Shown piece after piece: positions 696-60,396 of a stretch of 64,000 nucleotides of DNA. A model generated the notes under the pieces. It was not told the DNA's origin. It did no database searches and worked only from the letters and a program-made list of their open reading frames with translations. How positions within the stretch are numbered: position 1 is the stretch's first letter; each line of letters opens with the position of its first letter. Source of the stretch: Leucoraja erinacea. Lineage: Eukaryota. The stretch lies in contig NC_073379.1 of NCBI RefSeq assembly GCF_028641065.1, positions 82,708,001-82,772,000 on the forward strand, read 5' to 3'. The position numbers and the translations under genes are program-made.

Positions 696-1699
696 ATCTA
701 AACTTCCTCATTTCACAATTTCTGACATTCTTATCTTAGGTTGACAGGTCTTTCTTTGTTCAATGCCATCTTAAAGACAACACTACTAATAATACAACAG
801 TCTGTTGTCATTGATAGTGAGTTTGCAGTCCACAACAGTTTAAACCTACTTATGTGAAAAATTCAAATAGGTTGCTGTCACCAAAGTAACATTTGATTTC
901 AATCGGTCTATGAATATAATAGAACAATATTCATACAACAGAAAAAACGGTTGTAACAAACTCTCATTGAGTATACCTAGGCAATCATACCAGCCAAAAC
1001 TACCACTGACTGAACATAATTAAAAAAACAAGCCACCCTCAATATAACGCAGTGCAAGATTATGTTCCATGAAAATGAATGCTCTGCCACATCAATACAG
1101 TCACATCATGATTAATAGAAACACAGGCAAAGGCAATGATTTCATACTCCAACCCATGACACTCCTGAAAGATCCAGTATATTTTCTGAAGCGACCTCTG
1201 CACTAATTAGCAAAATATGGAGCAGTTATGAAGCGGAATTCAATTAACAACCACTATTTGAAATACATTGCCAGTGAGTCAATATGGGTGGTTCCTGGCA
1301 GATTACTCAAGACTCCTGATATGGAGGGGATGGATGATTCATTCATTGTAACAATCAGTTTACTGCACCTAGTCTTCACGGTGAATTTATCACCTTCCCA
1401 CTCAGACAGACCACATCACACTACAATGTTGCGTTGTGTCGTTTCCACAAGAGTGCCAGCGATTCACACCGATCCGTGCCGGCTCCTGGATAGACTCTAA
1501 ATGTCAGTCCACCAGCAGGCAGTCCGCTTGGTCCACCCAGTAAACCATGGATGTCGACCAACTAAGGGCTCTCCGGTCCGTGAGATTAACAACCCGAAGC
1601 AAACATTCGCCGGCATGAAGCCAGCTCTAATCTTTTTCATTTTAAAAATTAAGGTTTATTTACAGTTAAGTTAGATATCCTAAACAAAAACTCTCCAAA

Positions 1700-2157
1700 C
1701 TGTTGTATCTGCGTTCACCGAAGCCCGCACTCACCGGCCGTCGCCAACCCCCGGCTTCGTGAGCCGCCGCACGGCGAGAGCTGAGAAACCACCATCAGGG
1801 GAGGGGCCGGGGCTTCTGTGTGACCAACCGCCCGCCCGCCACACGTGACCAAAGATACTAGCGGAGCCTTTGCACGTGACCAACTACCACACGTGACCCG
1901 CATCACGGCAGGGAGTCACAGGCGGTGGATGAAAGCACTAATCAGGGGCCGGAAAACGGAGGGGGCAGGGCTTCTATGTGATCTACGTCACAGGTGAACG
2001 ACCATTGCACGTCACTAAACCTCACGGCGTGGGCAGGTGGAGCAGTAAATGCACCAATCAGAGGAGGGACCAATCAGAGGAGGGCGGCGGGGGCGGGTTC
2101 TACATCACACGTGACTCGGCATCGTGCAGAACCCCGCCCCCCGCTCCAGCTTGTGAC
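1700..2157. promoter_or_regulatory. CpG-rich promoter-like segment with E-boxes, CCAAT boxes and GC boxes
   Basis: CACGTG at 1842, 1873, 1890, 2108; CCAATCAG at about 2054 and 2070; GGGGCGGG/CCCCGCCCC near 2090 and 2132; high CpG density. Confidence 0.5.
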
Positions 2158-2181
2158 CAAGGAGCTCCTCTAGGACCTTTG
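2158..2181. mobile_element. 24-bp DNA-transposon footprint (TIR remnants) with 8-bp TSD CTTGTGAC
   Basis: CTTGTGAC(2150-2157)-caaggagctcctctaggacctttg-CTTGTGAC(2182-2189); degenerate version of the CAAAGATCCTATAG TIR. Confidence 0.7.
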
Positions 2182-2709
2182 CTTGTGACGGCATTTGCCC
2201 CTCCTCCCCGCGTGCGAGGAGTTGCCGTTGGTCCAGCTCCCCGCGCGCGTTCTAACCTGAACAAGGGCGTCACCCGCTGCTTCTCTCCACAGATGCTGCC
2301 CGCGAGTCCCGCTGGGTTACTCCAGCTTTGTGGGTCTATCCGCTCTGCCCCCCCCAACATCCTTGTTATAAACTCCGCGCTACTCTCAATCCCCGCGATG
2401 TAAACTCCGCGCTACCCATCGCCGGACTCCAGTTGGAAGACTGTCTTGCCTATTTGAGTTGGAAGATTTCTGGACTATTTGAGAGATGGGCAAGAACAGT
2501 CTTCGAACTCAAATTGGGGTCGAGACCCTTGTTCAGGTTAGAACGCGAGCGGGGAGCTGGACCAACGGCAACTACTCGCATACGGGGAGGAGGGACAAAG
2601 GCCGTCACAAGCAAAGAAGGAACTGCAGATGCTGGAAAAATCGAAGGTAGACAAAAATGCTGGAGAAACTCAGCGGGTGCAGCAGCATCTATGGAGCGAT
2701 GGAATAGAT

Positions 2710-2737
2710 GACGTTTCGGGTCGAGACCCTTCTTCAG
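2710..2737 (-). ncRNA. Minimal hammerhead ribozyme motif at Penelope end
   Basis: Minus strand CUGAAGA-A-GGGU(CUCG)ACCC-GAAA-CGUC; matches the minimal HHR type known from Penelope-like elements; helix I is weak. Confidence 0.6.
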
Positions 2738-3198
2738 ACTGGTGAGGGGGAGGGGGCAGGAAGAAGAAAGGAAGAGGTGGGGACAGTGGGCTGTGGGAGA
2801 ACTGGGAGGGGAAGGAGGGAGAAAGCAAGGATTACCTGAAATGGGAGGTCAATGAATGTTCATACCGCTGGGGTTTAAACTATCCAATTGTAATATGAGG
2901 TGCTGCTCCTCCAATTTGCGGTGGGACTCACTCTGGCCATGGAGGAGGCCCAGGACAGAAAGGTCAAATTCGGAATGGGAGATAGATTTGAAGTGTTGGG
3001 CCACCGGGAGATCAGGTTGGTTAGAGCAAACTGAGCGGAGTTTGGTTAGAGCAAACTGAGCGGAGGTGTTGGGCGAAGCCATCGCCAAGCCTACACTTGG
3101 TCTCATCGATGTAGAGCAGCTGACATCTAGAACAGCGGATGCAATGGATGAGGTTGAAGGAGGTGCCTCACCTATAAAGACTGTTTAGGTCCTTGGAT

Positions 3199-4053
3199 TA
3201 GCAATGTTACAAAATTTTGAGATTTAAAAAATCAAGTCTGCAATTTATCCCATCAGATAAAGCATAACAATAAGTTTAATTTGACACCAAATTCACTTTC
3301 ATATCTCAAGTATTAAAAAAGTTATGACCATTTTCATACTCGGAAATTAGCATCTTGTTCCCTATTGATTTTCAATGGGCATTACAAAAAAACTGTGATC
3401 TTAGATAGTCAAAAGCACATTTCTTAAGGAAAGATTAACATTTTTAAATAGCCTAAGTGTCCAAAGATTATTCACAAATAATTCACAATATAACATGATT
3501 TTTATATCTAATTTACATTAATTTATAGGCCAAATGGAAGGAATTTAGTGTTCAATTGCTGTAAATAAATGCCCATTTAAATCGGTTTTCTAGTGGGTTC
3601 ATGTGGAACGCGCAGGTTTAGAATGTTGACAGCGCGCTGGATTAGTGCCCTCAAATGCCGAGAAAAATACTGCGGGATATAAAAAGCCCAAAATGAGCTA
3701 CTCGCTATAGAAAATTATAATTATAGGGTTATATACATCCCCATTTAACTAAAAATAAGGTACCCCTTTAATTGTGGACTTTATAAAACCCAGGGGCTGC
3801 AACATCGGGAATGAACAATCTTCCTGCATCTAGCCTTTCCAACCCCTTATATCTACTCTTCGAGGCCTCTATAAAATCCCCCGGGTCTTGCAGCGATTCT
3901 CCGTTAATGATTTACTAGGCTGAACATCTGCGATTGGAACAGCCTAGTAAAAATCGGGTTTTAAACCCGCCCCCTCCAAACAGCTCCAAAATCACACACA
4001 AGGGGAGGGGCAGATGCTCAGCCACGATTCAGGTACGTTTTGTAACATACCTA
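3199..4053. mobile_element. Non-autonomous TIR DNA transposon, TAG...CTA ends, 7-bp TSD CTTGGAT
   Basis: TAGCAATGTTACAAAA / TTTTGTAACATACCTA; CTTGGAT at 3192-3198 and 4054-4060; splits a Penelope sequence. Confidence 0.8.
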
Positions 4054-4114
4054 CTTGGATGGAGTGAAGGGAGAGGAAAAGCGGCAAGTGTAGCATTTCC
4101 TGTGGTTGCAAGGG

Positions 4115-4505
4115 AAACATAGGAAATAGGTGCAGGAGTAGGCCATTCGGCCCTTCGAGCCTGCACCGCCATTCAATGGCTGATCATCCAACTCAGTATC
4201 CTGTACCTGCCTTCTCTCCATACCCCCTGATCCCTTTGGTGAATCTAACTCCCTCTTAAATATAGCCAATGAACTGGCCTCAACTACCTTCTGTGGCGGA
4301 GAATTCCAGAGATTCACCACTCTCTGTGTGAAAAATAGTTTCCTCATCTTGGTCCTAAAAGATTTCCCCCTTATCCTTAAACTGTGACCCCTTGTTCTGG
4401 ACTTCCCCAACATCGGGAACAATCTTCCTGCATCTAGCCTGTCCAACCCCTTAAGAATTTTGTAAGTTTCTATAAGATCCCCCCTCAATCTTCTAAATTC
4501 TAGCG
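4115..4505 (-). mobile_element. CR1 3' fragment
   Basis: ORF 4051..4488 RGDLIETYKILKGLDRLDAG..FFTQRVVNLWNS. Confidence 0.9.
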
Positions 4506-4947
4506 AAAGTGCCTGGGGATGGGGTGGTTTGGGTGGGAAGGGACGAAGCGACCAGGGTGTTACGGAGGGAGCGGTCTCTGCGGAAAGCCGAAAGGGGAGA
4601 TGGGAAGATGTGGCCAGTGGTGGGCTCCCGTTGGACGTGGCGAAAATGTCAGAGGATTATATGTTGTATGTGGCGGCCGGTAGGGTGGAAGGTGAGGACA
4701 AGGGGTACTCTGACCTTGTTACGAGTGGGGGGATGGGTAGTGAGAGCGGAGCTACGCGATATAGAAGAGACCCTGGTGAGAGCCTCATCTATAGTCGAAG
4801 AGGGGAACCCCCGTTCCCTAACGAATGCCTCCAATGCCCTGTTTTGGAACACCTCATCCTGGGTGCTGATGCAGCGTAGACGGAGGAATTGGGAGTAGGG
4901 GATGGAGTCCTTACAGGAAGCAGGGTGGGAAGAAGTGTAGTCCAGAT

Positions 4948-4971
4948 CAAAGATCTGCTATAGGATCTTTG
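4948..4971. mobile_element. 24-bp DNA-transposon footprint with 8-bp TSD GTCCAGAT
   Basis: GTCCAGAT-caaagatctgctataggatctttg-GTCCAGAT within Penelope sequence; right part identical to the TIR end at 52338-52353. Confidence 0.85.
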
Positions 4972-4999
4972 GTCCAGATAGCCATGGGAGTCAGTGGTT

Positions 5000-5333
5000 A
5001 TCTTTGGTCACAAGCTAGAGCGGGGGGCGGGTTCTGCACGAGTCACATGTGATGTAGATCCCACCAAAACCACGCCCCTCACCTCTGATTGGTGCATTTA
5101 CTGCTCCGCCTGCTCACTCCGTGGTATTTAGTGACGTGCTGTGGTCGATCACGTGTGATATAGATCACATAGAAGCCCTGACCACCCCGTTTTCCGGCCT
5201 CTGATTGGTGCTTTCCTCTGCTGCCTGTGACCCCTGCCGTGGATGTCGGTCAGGTGTGGTAGTTGGTCATGTGTGGAGGTCAGTCACGTGTGATGTTTGG
5301 TCACACGGAAGCCCTGCCCCCTCCCCTGATGGT
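5000..5333 (-). repeat. Diverged inverted duplicate of 1791-2164
   Basis: Colinear reverse complement, e.g. ttggtcacaagc..gagcggggggcgg and ccctgatggt. Confidence 0.85.
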
Positions 5334-6463
5334 AGATAAGACATAAAACAGTATAGCCCTTAATGTCTATGAAGATGAACATGGTGCCTATTTAACCTAA
5401 TTCCTTCTGCCTGGACGTGTTGTACATTCCCCCATTCTCTGCATATTCATGTGTATCTAAAATAAAGAACCTTTTAAACACTACTGTCTATTTGCTTCCA
5501 TGACCACCCTTGGCAGTGTGTTCTGGACACCCACCAGCCTATGTTAAAAAAAAAACTTGCTCCGTACATATCCTTTGAACTTTCCATCTCTGACCTTGTA
5601 GCTCAGCCCTCTAGATTTTGGCATTTCAATCCTGGGGAATAGGTTCTGACTGTCTACCTTATCTTATATCAGGTCTCCACTCGGCCTCCCATGCTTTAGA
5701 GAAAACCATCAACGTTTCTCCAACCTCACCTTTTGGTAATATTCTGTAAACCAGACAGCATTCTGGGAAGCCTATTTTTTCTCTTTTTTTCTTCCTTGGT
5801 GATTTTATTAAATGAAATGGCATGTTGCTATTTTTTACTATTTTAAACACCTCATTTGTTGACTCGTCTCAGTCCCAAATGGCCTACCCCTTATTCTTAA
5901 TCTGTGACCCCTGGTTGTGGACTCCCCGAACATCAGGAACATTTGTCCTGCAACTAATATAAACTTTTAAGAATTTTATATGTTTCTATAAGATCCAGGG
6001 AAAACCTAGCAATACATAGTGCATTATCAAATGCAATAGTCCCATGAATTATTTAAATAGTTAAAACATTACCTGCACATATTTTCAACATATTGCTATC
6101 AGGCAAAGTGCTACATTAGAGCAAAAATTGAACATTTAATCTTTGTTTTTTTAAGATATGTTCTAAAAAAACAGCTAATTTCAGAAGTTTTGCCAATTCC
6201 ATTCAACCTGCCAACTAGTATATTGGGGTAAATAAGATAATTTTAAAGTTAATTTCTGTATATTTGCTTTTTTAATTTTTATTTAAACAAGATAACCAAA
6301 CACATCACAAGCAAGTTAATGGTACAATTTTATTGAAACAGCGATATGACTATTTTTATTGGAACAAGTGCAACAATTAACAGCTACAGAATAGCAGTTA
6401 GCAGGCCCAGAAATACTGACTACTTCTCATATATTGGCCTATGAACGATCAGACAGAAAGTGT

Positions 6464-51971: not shown

Positions 51972-52353
51972 AGCTAGATAGACCAATCCTGCTAAATGCA
52001 ATGGGCTGACGTGTAGTACGCAGCGGAGCGGAACGTGGGCCTTTTTTTCATCCATTTCAGTAACCCGACTCGCAGTGTAATCAACGTTGCGGGAGAACAG
52101 TTGTTAATTCTGTTAAAAATTATATTTCTGTTATAAATTATAATTCTGAAAATGAGGAGAACATTTTTCCCAAATAACTTTGATTTTTACGAGGATGTTT
52201 CCGTAACCGGCTTCTGTCTCCGCAATATTATCCTATGGGATCTTTGGTGCGGCGACGGAAGCCGGTTACAGAAATGGGGCCTAAAATGACTCATGAATCT
52301 GCCCATGACCGTACTACGTCGAGTGATCTATCTTGCTTGCTATAGGATCTTTG
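51972..52353. mobile_element. MITE of the CAAAGATCCTATAG-TIR family (left end truncated)
   Basis: Right end gagtgatctatcttgcttgctataggatctttg; left remnant agatagaccaatc; internal inverted repeat cgtaaccggcttc/gaagccggttac. Confidence 0.7.
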
Positions 52354-52557: not shown

Positions 52558-52792
52558 GAAAGAACTGCAGATGCAGGAAAATCGAAGGTAGACAAAAATG
52601 CTGGAGAAACTCAGCGGGTGAGGCAGCATCTATGGAGTGAAGGAAATAGGAGACGTTTCGGGTCGAGACCCTTCTTCAGACCAAAGATGCTATATTTGCT
52701 TCAGACTGATGGGGGGCGGGAAGAAGAAAGGAAGATGCGGAGACTGGGCTGTAGGAGAGCTGGAAAGGGGAGGGGGAAAAAAGGAGAAAGCA
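52558..52792 (-). mobile_element. Penelope end with an intact minimal HHR core (52652-52679) and a 17-bp footprint (52682-52698)
   Basis: CUGAAGAAGGGUCUCGACCCGAAACGUC on minus; CTTCAGAC-caaagatgctatatttg-CTTCAGAC. Confidence 0.8.
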
Positions 52793-58985: not shown

Positions 58986-60396
58986 CTCAATATCGACTAC
59001 AAGCCCTCTGAAGATTTGTGGCTTAGGGAGAAATTGGGTAAAGAAACGTCCTCCGATTACCACCTACGACACTCATTCTGCTCCTCTGCGCTGAGGAGGG
59101 GGAAGGGGAGGCAAGAGGGGGTGGGAGAACACTGAACACCGCCACTTGCACGTTCCTCACCAAAACATGCACCACCCATATTTGCTGGTGCATTGCAGGT
59201 CTTTAATTGCTGTGAGTCTACATATGGTGCCATTGTACGAGTACCTTCCAGAAGAAGTGCAGCAGTTCAAGAAGAACCACATTCACAAATGCAAGTGGGA
59301 ATGGACCGTAAATGTTGGATTTGCCAGTGATGGCCAGATTATGAAAAGTTAATGAATAAATTAACCTCATCCATTGCTTTAAACATCTATTGGCATTTAG
59401 TCACCGTTCTCTGGCTGTATAATCACCCATGTAGAGTCCAATTATGTGTTTTACCTTGCTTCTAAGCTTTTTGGCCTCTGTTCAATCATGCTCCTGACAA
59501 ATTAACTTGATTTTTCAATCAAACTCACCGATGGAACTCTCCATGAAGATGTTAAGCCCACTCATCCTCAAAGTTTAACTCGTCCCTTTTGATTAGCTGC
59601 TTGTAGCCCCAAACCTGGTGCTAATACCGAGAACACCTGTGACCATTGCTCCTGTGCCGAGTTTCAAGCCATACCATGATTCTCCTTTTTGCCATCATTC
59701 TAACAGTCATCAGTTGGTGACACGGGGAATAATGAAAAAAGTCCTATTTTTAAATTTGCTCCTCCAATCCTGAAAGTTGATCACAGTTTCCAGCTCACTC
59801 CTTCCTCCTTACAATATATCCTGCACACTCCTTTACCTGACACTGTAGAGGTCACGCTGAAATCTAGACATTTCGGATTGTTATAGAAATGGTCTTAATC
59901 TCCCTAACTGTTTGTCTGAAAACAACAGTATTTCCGTGGTTTGTGCAGTCTCATTCAACAGTATTTCTTGTCTGTGCAGTCTGATCTGTTGGTGGAATGT
60001 TTTGGATGGCGTTCCTTCAAAATGTGAGCACCGGTTTTGCATAACACGCTCCCCAGTAGACTCTTGCACATCTTGCCACTTGCACCTATCTATCTGTCTG
60101 TCTAAATCCTTTCCCTCCATTTGCCTGTCTGCCTGTCTATTTTCTGCCTGTTTGCATTTCAGTTCCCTACTTGTCTTTTACCCTGGTCTTTTCCAAAAGT
60201 GTCATAGTTCACACTTTCAGCGCCATCAAAATATAGCTGAAAGCCTGTGCCTATGCTCTTTCATTATTTTTGGGCCTATTTCTCACTGAAATTCGTTGCT
60301 ACGAGTAGTATGTTAAATATGTTATCTATTTGGATGTTGCTAACTATCCAAAACCAATGTTGAGTGATGAAATGACTCTGTTCTACTTTACCTTAG

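What the first reader, a model, noticed from the sequence alone, without database searches (positions are those of the whole stretch)
4940..4979. P-element-style excision footprints (three in the window)
Seen: tiny inserts made only of the two TIR tips, each between perfect 8-bp TSDs: 4948-4971 (GTCCAGAT), 2158-2181 (CTTGTGAC) and 52682-52698 (CTTCAGAC). The longer MITE at 51972-52353 has the same end (..tgctataggatctttg). The 4948 insert parses as about 7 nt of left TIR plus 17 nt of right TIR. Known: P transposase makes a 17-nt staggered cut and leaves TIR tips between 8-bp TSDs, whereas hAT excision normally leaves no TIR; the TSDs resemble the GGCCAGAC P target consensus. Inference: a P-superfamily (THAP9-related) family was highly mobile in this lineage's germline.
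Basis: partly seen in the sequence, partly recalled or inferred. Interest (0 to 1): 0.7.

Follow-up and report, generated by a model that had tools for sequence, protein, structure and literature searches.

The report
P-transposon scars record its cut depth
These tiny inserts are among thousands in this genome made of just the two tips of a P-element-type jumping gene between 8-base target repeats; they are likely scars left when it jumped out, and their lengths suggest that this enzyme cuts 18-20 bases into its own ends, at a point likely set by a short DNA motif, rather than the 17 known from fruit flies.

Summary
The three inserts are real, each between perfect 8-bp repeats; a fourth lies at 1850-1872. 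Genome-wide, 4,248 tip-to-tip inserts of 16-46 bp match a strict pattern (7 in the control; only 197 of 47-76 bp). A 10.5-kb element with the same ends and a perfect target repeat carries a 773-codon P-transposase frame, so the P assignment holds. In one subfamily 1,314 arms reach 20 nt and 90 reach 21; in another 423 reach 18 and 17 reach 19. Both stop at AGC^AAGAT, so the inner cut is likely placed by sequence, not counted from the tip; trimming to a GC microhomology is the main rival. At 2158 one related organism has an empty site and two have longer palindromic scars of two different subfamilies. No full element was seen at an orthologous site; THAP9 orthology was not shown. This scan noted the same system before on other DNA, in this and other genomes. 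Verdict: new variant of a known kind, interest 0.6.

The parts
4940..4979 (.). Scar 1: 24-bp insert 4948-4971 (20-type tips, arms of 15-18 and 6-9 nt) between GTCCAGAT repeats, inside a high-copy host repeat
   Evidence: 32-bp skip (insert + one TSD) in contigs of all 4 runs, from other copies of the host repeat; organism C contig 4923-5400 has no gap
2150..2189 (.). Scar 2: 24-bp insert 2158-2181 (18-type) between CTTGTGAC repeats; likely a 34-bp 18+18 palindrome minus 10 bp
   Evidence: organism B empty, C start of an 18+18 palindrome, D start of a 20+20 palindrome
52674..52706 (.). Scar 3: decayed 17-bp insert 52682-52698 between CTTCAGAC repeats, at a recurrent target in a common host repeat
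   Evidence: same target seen empty 77 times and with inserts 7 times among session loci, which were chosen for inserts
1842..1880 (.).
   Evidence: spanned without a listed deletion by contigs of organisms C and D; lies in a short tandem repeat, so the TSD is less certain
51972..52353 (+). Non-autonomous MITE of the family (about 400 bp when whole), left tip missing, right end intact (19-type)
   Evidence: 2,846 candidates, 40 scored; 21 of the 30 fetched copies have both tips and an 8-bp TSD with at most 1 mismatch
5001..5333 (-). Inverted copy (76%) of 1791-2163, ending at a second copy of the 2158 target site followed by a TIR-like tip
2526..2616 (-). Inverted copy (93%) of 2177-2267, the other flank of the second copy of the 2158 target site

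Best explanation
The inserts are the two tips of a P-superfamily DNA transposon joined head to head between its 8-bp target repeats, likely scars of germline excision in which the transposase is predicted to cut each end in a long stagger and host end joining would fuse the two 3' tails. SHOWN: the inserts, their TSDs, their number, the P transposase inside elements with the same ends, the arm-length caps (20 nt and 18 nt in two subfamilies), and that both caps fall at AGC^AAGAT. INFERRED: (1) the transposase cuts one strand at the tip and the other just 5' of AAGAT, leaving 18-20-nt 3' tails on the donor; (2) the tails are joined mostly through their terminal self-complementary GC (38-, 36-, 34-mers; 33-, 31-, 28-mers at the inner GC), less often bluntly (40-mers), with templated inserts, or after one-sided gap-repair synthesis (51-53-mers), the same classes as fly P repair junctions; (3) the inner cut is placed by sequence or by the fixed spacing of inner motifs, not counted from the tip.
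For: 4,248 sites of 16-46 bp vs 7 control; 197 of 47-76 bp vs 12, by eye mostly nested, tandem, templated or chance. 40 of the first 50 sites have an 8-bp TSD with at most 1 mismatch; 39 of 50 have distinct flanks. 20-type: arm >=17: 2,246 rows, >=20: 1,314, >=21: 90. Of the 90, by eye 39 are 20 + a partner arm that starts with A, and 5 clearly continue into the TIR; four of those 5 keep the other arm at 19-20. Blunt 20+20 joins: 4 sites in the first 100 rows (3 of 4 with perfect TSD); no 21+20 or 21+21 join among the 90. 18-type: 423 vs 17 rows; 19 of 22 fetched sites have TSD with at most 1 mismatch. An ATGGG-type motif lies 27 or 38 nt behind AGC^ in 59 of 73 intact ends of all three tip lengths. 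Autonomous partner: G000:C956:134044-144562 and C1:34496784-34506705 with perfect TSDs; PF21787/8/9, PF12017, upstream THAP half; 6p5a E 1.3e-42 with D230/D303/E531 and 7 of 8 GTP-contact residues kept. Empty orthologous site in organism B, two different palindromic scars in C and D. Fly junction tables show the same classes with a cap at 17 (PMC2895639).
Against: No full-length element was seen at an orthologous site of any window scar, so full-to-scar is not shown directly. In the fly tables the commonest joins use a microhomology 1 nt inside the tail, so a GC-driven cap could lie 1 nt short of the true cut. In the 18-type, four independent 37-mers have a 19-nt arm, against one blunt 18+18 join in the first 100 rows: 18 vs 19 is not clean. 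The 19-type ends gave only 36 rows, 5 running on with A: inconclusive. Counts include copies amplified inside other repeats (133 fetched sites fell into 92 flank clusters). One-end tip deletions were dominated by direct-repeat deletions and gave no clean second test. No biochemistry.
Confidence: 0.78

Rival explanations
1. Excision scars of a P element, but the cut lies at a fixed or longer distance (1-3 nt further in) and the tails are trimmed back to the self-complementary GC before joining, so the caps show repair preference rather than the cut.
For: Most arms at the cap end in an AGC|T join. Fly joins often lose the last base to use a 2-nt microhomology. Four independent 19-nt arms in the 18-type.
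Against: Microhomology-free joins also stop at AGC: 16 of the first 100 rows go on with G or C (by eye), including blunt 40-mers, and no 41- or 42-mer of the 21-nt kind is among the 90 rows. A 20-nt ruler in the 18-type would leave a terminal AA able to pair with TT of the partner; that 26-mer occurs once in the first 100 rows. In the fly tables blunt and insertion joins often keep the full tail.
Confidence: 0.13
2. Ordinary internal deletions of MITEs (slippage or abortive gap repair) that happen to leave only the tips; no link to the cleavage geometry.
For: Deletions between short direct repeats do occur inside the ends; a few remnants keep 27-34 nt of one end.
Against: 4,248 vs 197 sites in two length bins of like width; a drop to 7% and 4% at one base although the TIR runs on to about 35 bp with further 2-5-nt microhomologies. 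Most joins are palindromic tail-to-tail joins, not direct-repeat deletions.
Confidence: 0.04
3. The 24-40-bp palindromes are themselves mobile micro-elements.
For: Identical inserts recur at many sites with different TSDs.
Against: They lack the inner motifs kept in intact ends; recurrent forms are those that microhomology predicts; the strikingly repeated forms share their flanks, i.e. they travelled inside larger repeats; one target carries different forms in different species.
Confidence: 0.03
4. One reading: a fly-like 17-nt stagger.
For: Fly P leaves 17-nt tails (PMC7776569, PMC2895639); the 4948 insert can be parsed 7 + 17.
Against: At least 1,314 of 2,246 arms that reach 17 go on to 20; 18-type arms stop at 18.
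Confidence: 0.02

Closest known systems
Drosophila melanogaster P element and its transposase (PDB 6p5a/6pe2; review PMC7776569, passages and section 8 read)
   Same: THAP, HTH, split RNase H with GTP-binding insertion; DDE triad and most GTP-contact residues; 8-bp TSD; TIR of 31-35 bp; asymmetric inner motifs (fly sites 9 and 21 bp behind a 31-bp TIR, i.e. 24 and 36 nt behind the cut by my arithmetic; here 27 and 38); bias to CpG-rich flanks, like the fly's promoter bias; long retained tails.
   Different: Tail likely 18-20 nt and varying between subfamilies of one genome instead of 17; other TIR sequence; 8-10.5-kb autonomous copies; host is likely a cartilaginous fish (from recalled repeat content and earlier notes, not tested); thousands of fixed scars.
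Fly P donor-site end-joining junctions (PMC2895639, passages and parts of Tables 1-3 seen)
   Same: Short-microhomology, blunt, 1-3-nt insertion, templated insertion and synthesis-then-joining classes between intact TSDs, capped at the tail length.
   Different: Those are laboratory events at one site in repair mutants; these are natural, fixed, genome-wide and partly shared between species.
Zebrafish THAP9/Pdre elements (PMC10983969, passages seen; supplements not read)
   Same: Vertebrate P-type transposon with TIRs, 8-bp TSD and internally deleted copies.
   Different: 13-bp TIR, about 50 copies, one full gene; the passages seen report larger donor deletions and give no cut position. Orthology of this transposase with THAP9 not shown.

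Membership tests
P superfamily DNA transposon | Transposase with HTH, split RNase H and GTP-binding insertion domain | tested here: met
   PF12017, PF21787, PF21788, PF21789 above cut-off; only PDB hit 6p5a, E 1.3e-42
P superfamily DNA transposon | Catalytic D230/D303/E531 and GTP-contact residues | tested here: met
   Triad aligned; K385, V401, S409, F443, D444, N447, D528 identical, K400 is R (alignment, residue list)
P superfamily DNA transposon | N-terminal THAP domain | tested here: met
   C-terminal half of THAP in an upstream frame of the C956 element, E 1.9e-6, and in frame in another copy; first exon and splicing not modelled
P superfamily DNA transposon | Gene enclosed by the same TIRs as the scars, with 7-8-bp TSD | tested here: met
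   3 of 15 extended loci gave a TIR pair with matching 8-mers (2 perfect, 1 with 2 mismatches); most others showed one end only
P superfamily DNA transposon | GTP-dependent cleavage with a long stagger | not testable with these tools
   Only inferred from scar lengths
Drosophila-type P cleavage | 17-nt stagger | tested here: not met
   Caps at 20 and 18 nt
THAP9 orthology group | Groups with vertebrate THAP9 in a tree; single domesticated locus | not tested
   No tree built; no hit named THAP9 among the best 120 of 321, most unnamed; multicopy and TIR-bounded here
hAT superfamily | hAT transposase between these TIRs; footprints without TIR remnants | tested here: not met
   TIR-bounded gene is P-type; scars keep up to 20 nt of each TIR. 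No genome-wide search for a hAT partner was made.

The most novel reading that the evidence does not exclude
In P-superfamily transposases the inner cut is not a 17-nt ruler but is placed by an internal copy of the element's own tip sequence that re-pairs with the terminus, so tail length drifts between subfamilies; this recently mobile vertebrate family (six frames 98-100% identical, no stops) and its thousands of germline scars let one read cut depth and end-joining outcomes straight from genomes.
Probability: 0.5. Interest if true: 0.72.

Novelty: new variant of a known kind. Interest (0 to 1): 0.6.

Why it matters
[quoted passage not shown] Here two subfamilies in one genome give different tail lengths that end at one motif, a direct and cheap prediction for how the inner cut is placed. 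The family also has young, uninterrupted transposase frames with their own ends, a natural vertebrate P system for biochemistry, and the scars are a large record of how a vertebrate germline joins long non-complementary 3' tails, concentrated in CpG-rich, promoter-like DNA.

Tried and rejected
Random sampling of 20 x 10 kb gave only two weak 10-bp candidates, so it was dropped for pattern counts; it served as the background for CpG content. 19-type ends as a third test of ruler versus motif: 36 rows, 5 run on with A, inconclusive. One-end tip deletions as a test free of GC microhomology: 148 rows vs 6 control, but mostly deletions between ATAG, AG or AGC repeats; by eye about 10 of the first 100 resume at AAGAT with at most 1 nt of overlap, a few at neighbouring positions; suggestive only. 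The frequent 26-, 17-, 36- and 40-mers were checked and found to be copies inside larger repeats, not separate events. The first read-laying on 1500-5400 was swamped by repeats. Names for the nearest proteins: none informative. Beall and Rio 1997 and Ghanim 2019 were not held, so the base-pair register in the fly structure could not be checked. The fifth CA..TG hit (59952-59974) has no TIR likeness and was rejected. The background part crashed and was redone.

Full report
1. Observation. The three inserts are in the window as described, each between perfect 8-bp direct repeats. A fourth lies at 1850-1872. Four such inserts were seen against none in 98 of 100 Markov simulations of the window. 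The MITE at 51972-52353 shares the right tip but has lost its left tip. Its relatives are about 400 bp long with a TIR of about 35 bp; 21 of 30 fetched copies have both tips and an 8-bp TSD with at most one mismatch, 6 have both tips with a worse match, 3 lack a tip. Because the TIR runs well beyond 17 bp, a cap on retained length can be tested.

2. The autonomous partner. PF21787 matches 40 places in the genome. Fifteen were extended; three gave a TIR pair with matching 8-mers: G000:C956:134044-144562 (10,519 bp, perfect TSD), C1:34496784-34506705 (9,922 bp, perfect TSD, frame broken) and C1305:33102-43612 (two mismatches); seven others showed a family end on one side only. The C956 copy holds a 773-codon stop-free frame with the HTH, RNase H and GTP-binding families, and half a THAP domain upstream. 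A 99% identical copy matches only the fly P transposase in the PDB (E 1.3e-42), with the DDE triad and 7 of 8 GTP-contact residues named in the review kept. Six such frames are 98-100% identical, so the family is young or was recently active. The nearest named proteins are molluscan P transposases at 39-44% identity; a special tie to THAP9 was not shown.

3. How many scars. The pattern of 8 bases of tip, 0-30 bases and 8 bases of reverse tip has 4,248 sites against 7 in the control; with 31-60 bases between, 197 against 12, and by eye the first 50 of these are mostly nested, tandem, templated or chance. Of the first 50 sites in genome order, 40 have a TSD with at most one mismatch, and flank clustering leaves 39 distinct, so roughly 3,300 separate events fit the strict pattern. 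Three of the four window inserts do not fit it, so the true number is higher. Flanks are CpG-rich (observed/expected 0.61 against 0.40 in 212 random bins). The symmetrised TSD profile of 67 perfect TSDs is G/C-T-N-N-N-N-A-C/G.

4. The cap is not 17. For ends of the 20-type, arms that reach 17 nt number 2,246 rows, those that reach 20 nt 1,314, those that reach 21 nt 90 (rows count arms, and include amplified copies). By eye, 39 of the 90 are a 20-nt arm joined to a partner arm that begins with A (15 32-mers, 20 30-mers, 4 29-mers), most of the rest are slips, inserts or CpG decay, and 5 clearly run on into the TIR. Four of those 5 are independent 51-53-bp remnants whose other arm stops at 19-20, the form expected from one-sided synthesis then joining. 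Blunt 20+20 joins occur (4 sites in the first 100 rows); no 21+20 or 21+21 join is among the 90.

5. The cap follows a motif. The autonomous copies have a shorter tip, with AGC ending at base 18. For this type 423 rows reach 18 nt and 17 reach 19 (the second pattern misses joins whose partner starts at once with A, one in the first 100 rows). Both caps fall at AGC^AAGAT. An ATGGG-type motif, possibly the THAP site (untested), lies 27 or 38 nt behind this point in 59 of 73 intact ends of 18, 19 and 20 nt; the fly's two sites lie 24 and 36 nt behind its cut (my arithmetic from PMC7776569). Against a clean reading: four independent 18-type scars have a 19-nt arm; the 19-type test was inconclusive; and fly joins often lose one base to use a microhomology. 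The five bases after the cap repeat TIR positions 3-7 exactly. In the fly TIR as printed in PMC11368186 the five bases after position 17 match positions 3-7 at three places plus one wobble, in the same register. The review says that the transferred strand loops out and pairs with the 5' part of the non-transferred strand, with bases -14 to -18 disordered.

6. Related organisms. Contigs of coded runs were laid on 1500-2280 (one contig per run at each point). At 2158, organism B skips 32 bp (insert plus one TSD), organism C (two runs) continues into the start of an 18+18 palindrome, and organism D into the start of a 20+20 palindrome. The window's insert equals the 34-mer less 10 bp and one substitution. 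So one target holds nothing, an 18-type scar or a 20-type scar in different species: repeated insertion or replacement, then excision, is the likely history. B's empty site may be ancestral or a reversion. The 1850 scar is spanned in C and D, the 4948 scar in C, and the empty form of 4948 appears in other copies of its host repeat in all four runs. No run showed a full element at these sites. Run X1 may be the window's own source and is not counted as support.

7. Mechanism. Most likely the transposase cuts each end at the tip on one strand and just 5' of AAGAT on the other. The donor keeps two identical 18-20-nt 3' tails that end in GC. Host end joining pairs the terminal GC or an inner 2-3-nt match, or joins bluntly, or adds templated bases, and the result is fixed in the germline. 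Shown: anatomy, numbers, caps, partner. Inferred: cleavage, repair, and what places the inner cut.

8. Known versus new. It works like the fly P element and passes the P-superfamily tests that could be run; it fails the 17-nt feature. Papers seen: PMC7776569 (passages, section 8), PMC10983969, PMC2895639, PMC3698922 and PMC11368186 (passages); all else as search listings only. Searches showed no paper on P scars in cartilaginous fishes or on a cut depth other than 17; the library lacks most subscription journals and repeat databases, and no supplement was read, which may matter for the zebrafish junctions. The host is likely a skate-like cartilaginous fish (recalled repeat content and earlier notes; not tested). 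This scan noted the same system with the same 18-20-nt reading on other DNA of this genome and of other genomes; my reading was written down before that look-up, and those notes are not counted as evidence.

9. Verdict. Real; P-superfamily excision scars (about 0.93); inner cut at AGC^AAGAT, 18-20 nt deep (about 0.78 overall). New variant of a known kind; interest 0.6.

Noticed in passing
window 1791-2267 and 2526-5333: The CpG-rich, promoter-like stretch with CACGTGAC and CCAAT motifs is present twice in inverted orientation; the second copy of the 2158 target also has TIR-like tips, with about 2.4 kb of other repeats between them. Either the site was hit twice or the duplication followed or was caused by the insertion.
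   Followed up: partly
window 52674-52706; L002, L008, L127, L151, L155, L200: One CTTCAGAC target in a very common host repeat is found empty, with full MITEs and with several different scars: a target hot spot.
   Followed up: partly
L061 2223-2258, 2595-2630; L063 7904-8014: The autonomous elements carry scars of their own family inside their 5' regions, and many repeated scars sit inside longer non-autonomous copies: the family inserts into itself.
   Followed up: partly
L274 4854-5657: A 267-codon frame that looks like a LINE reverse-transcriptase piece (recalled likeness, not searched) lies inside the autonomous copies, 3' of the transposase gene, and is shared by several young copies.
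   Followed up: no
L312-L315: Four independent 51-53-bp remnants with one 32-34-nt arm and one arm at the cap, like synthesis-then-joining products.
   Followed up: yes
L073 / G000:C1530 about 55,350: A right end and a left end of two elements face each other across one GTCCTGGC 8-mer, i.e. a tandem insertion at one target.
   Followed up: no
window 52232-52246 and MITE consensus 227-303: The MITE has an internal palindrome with tip-like arms, possibly an old scar carried along by all copies.
   Followed up: no
P0001-P0005: Unnamed relatives at 58-79% identity, then a gap to 39-45% where molluscan names appear; horizontal transfer is possible but untested.
   Followed up: no
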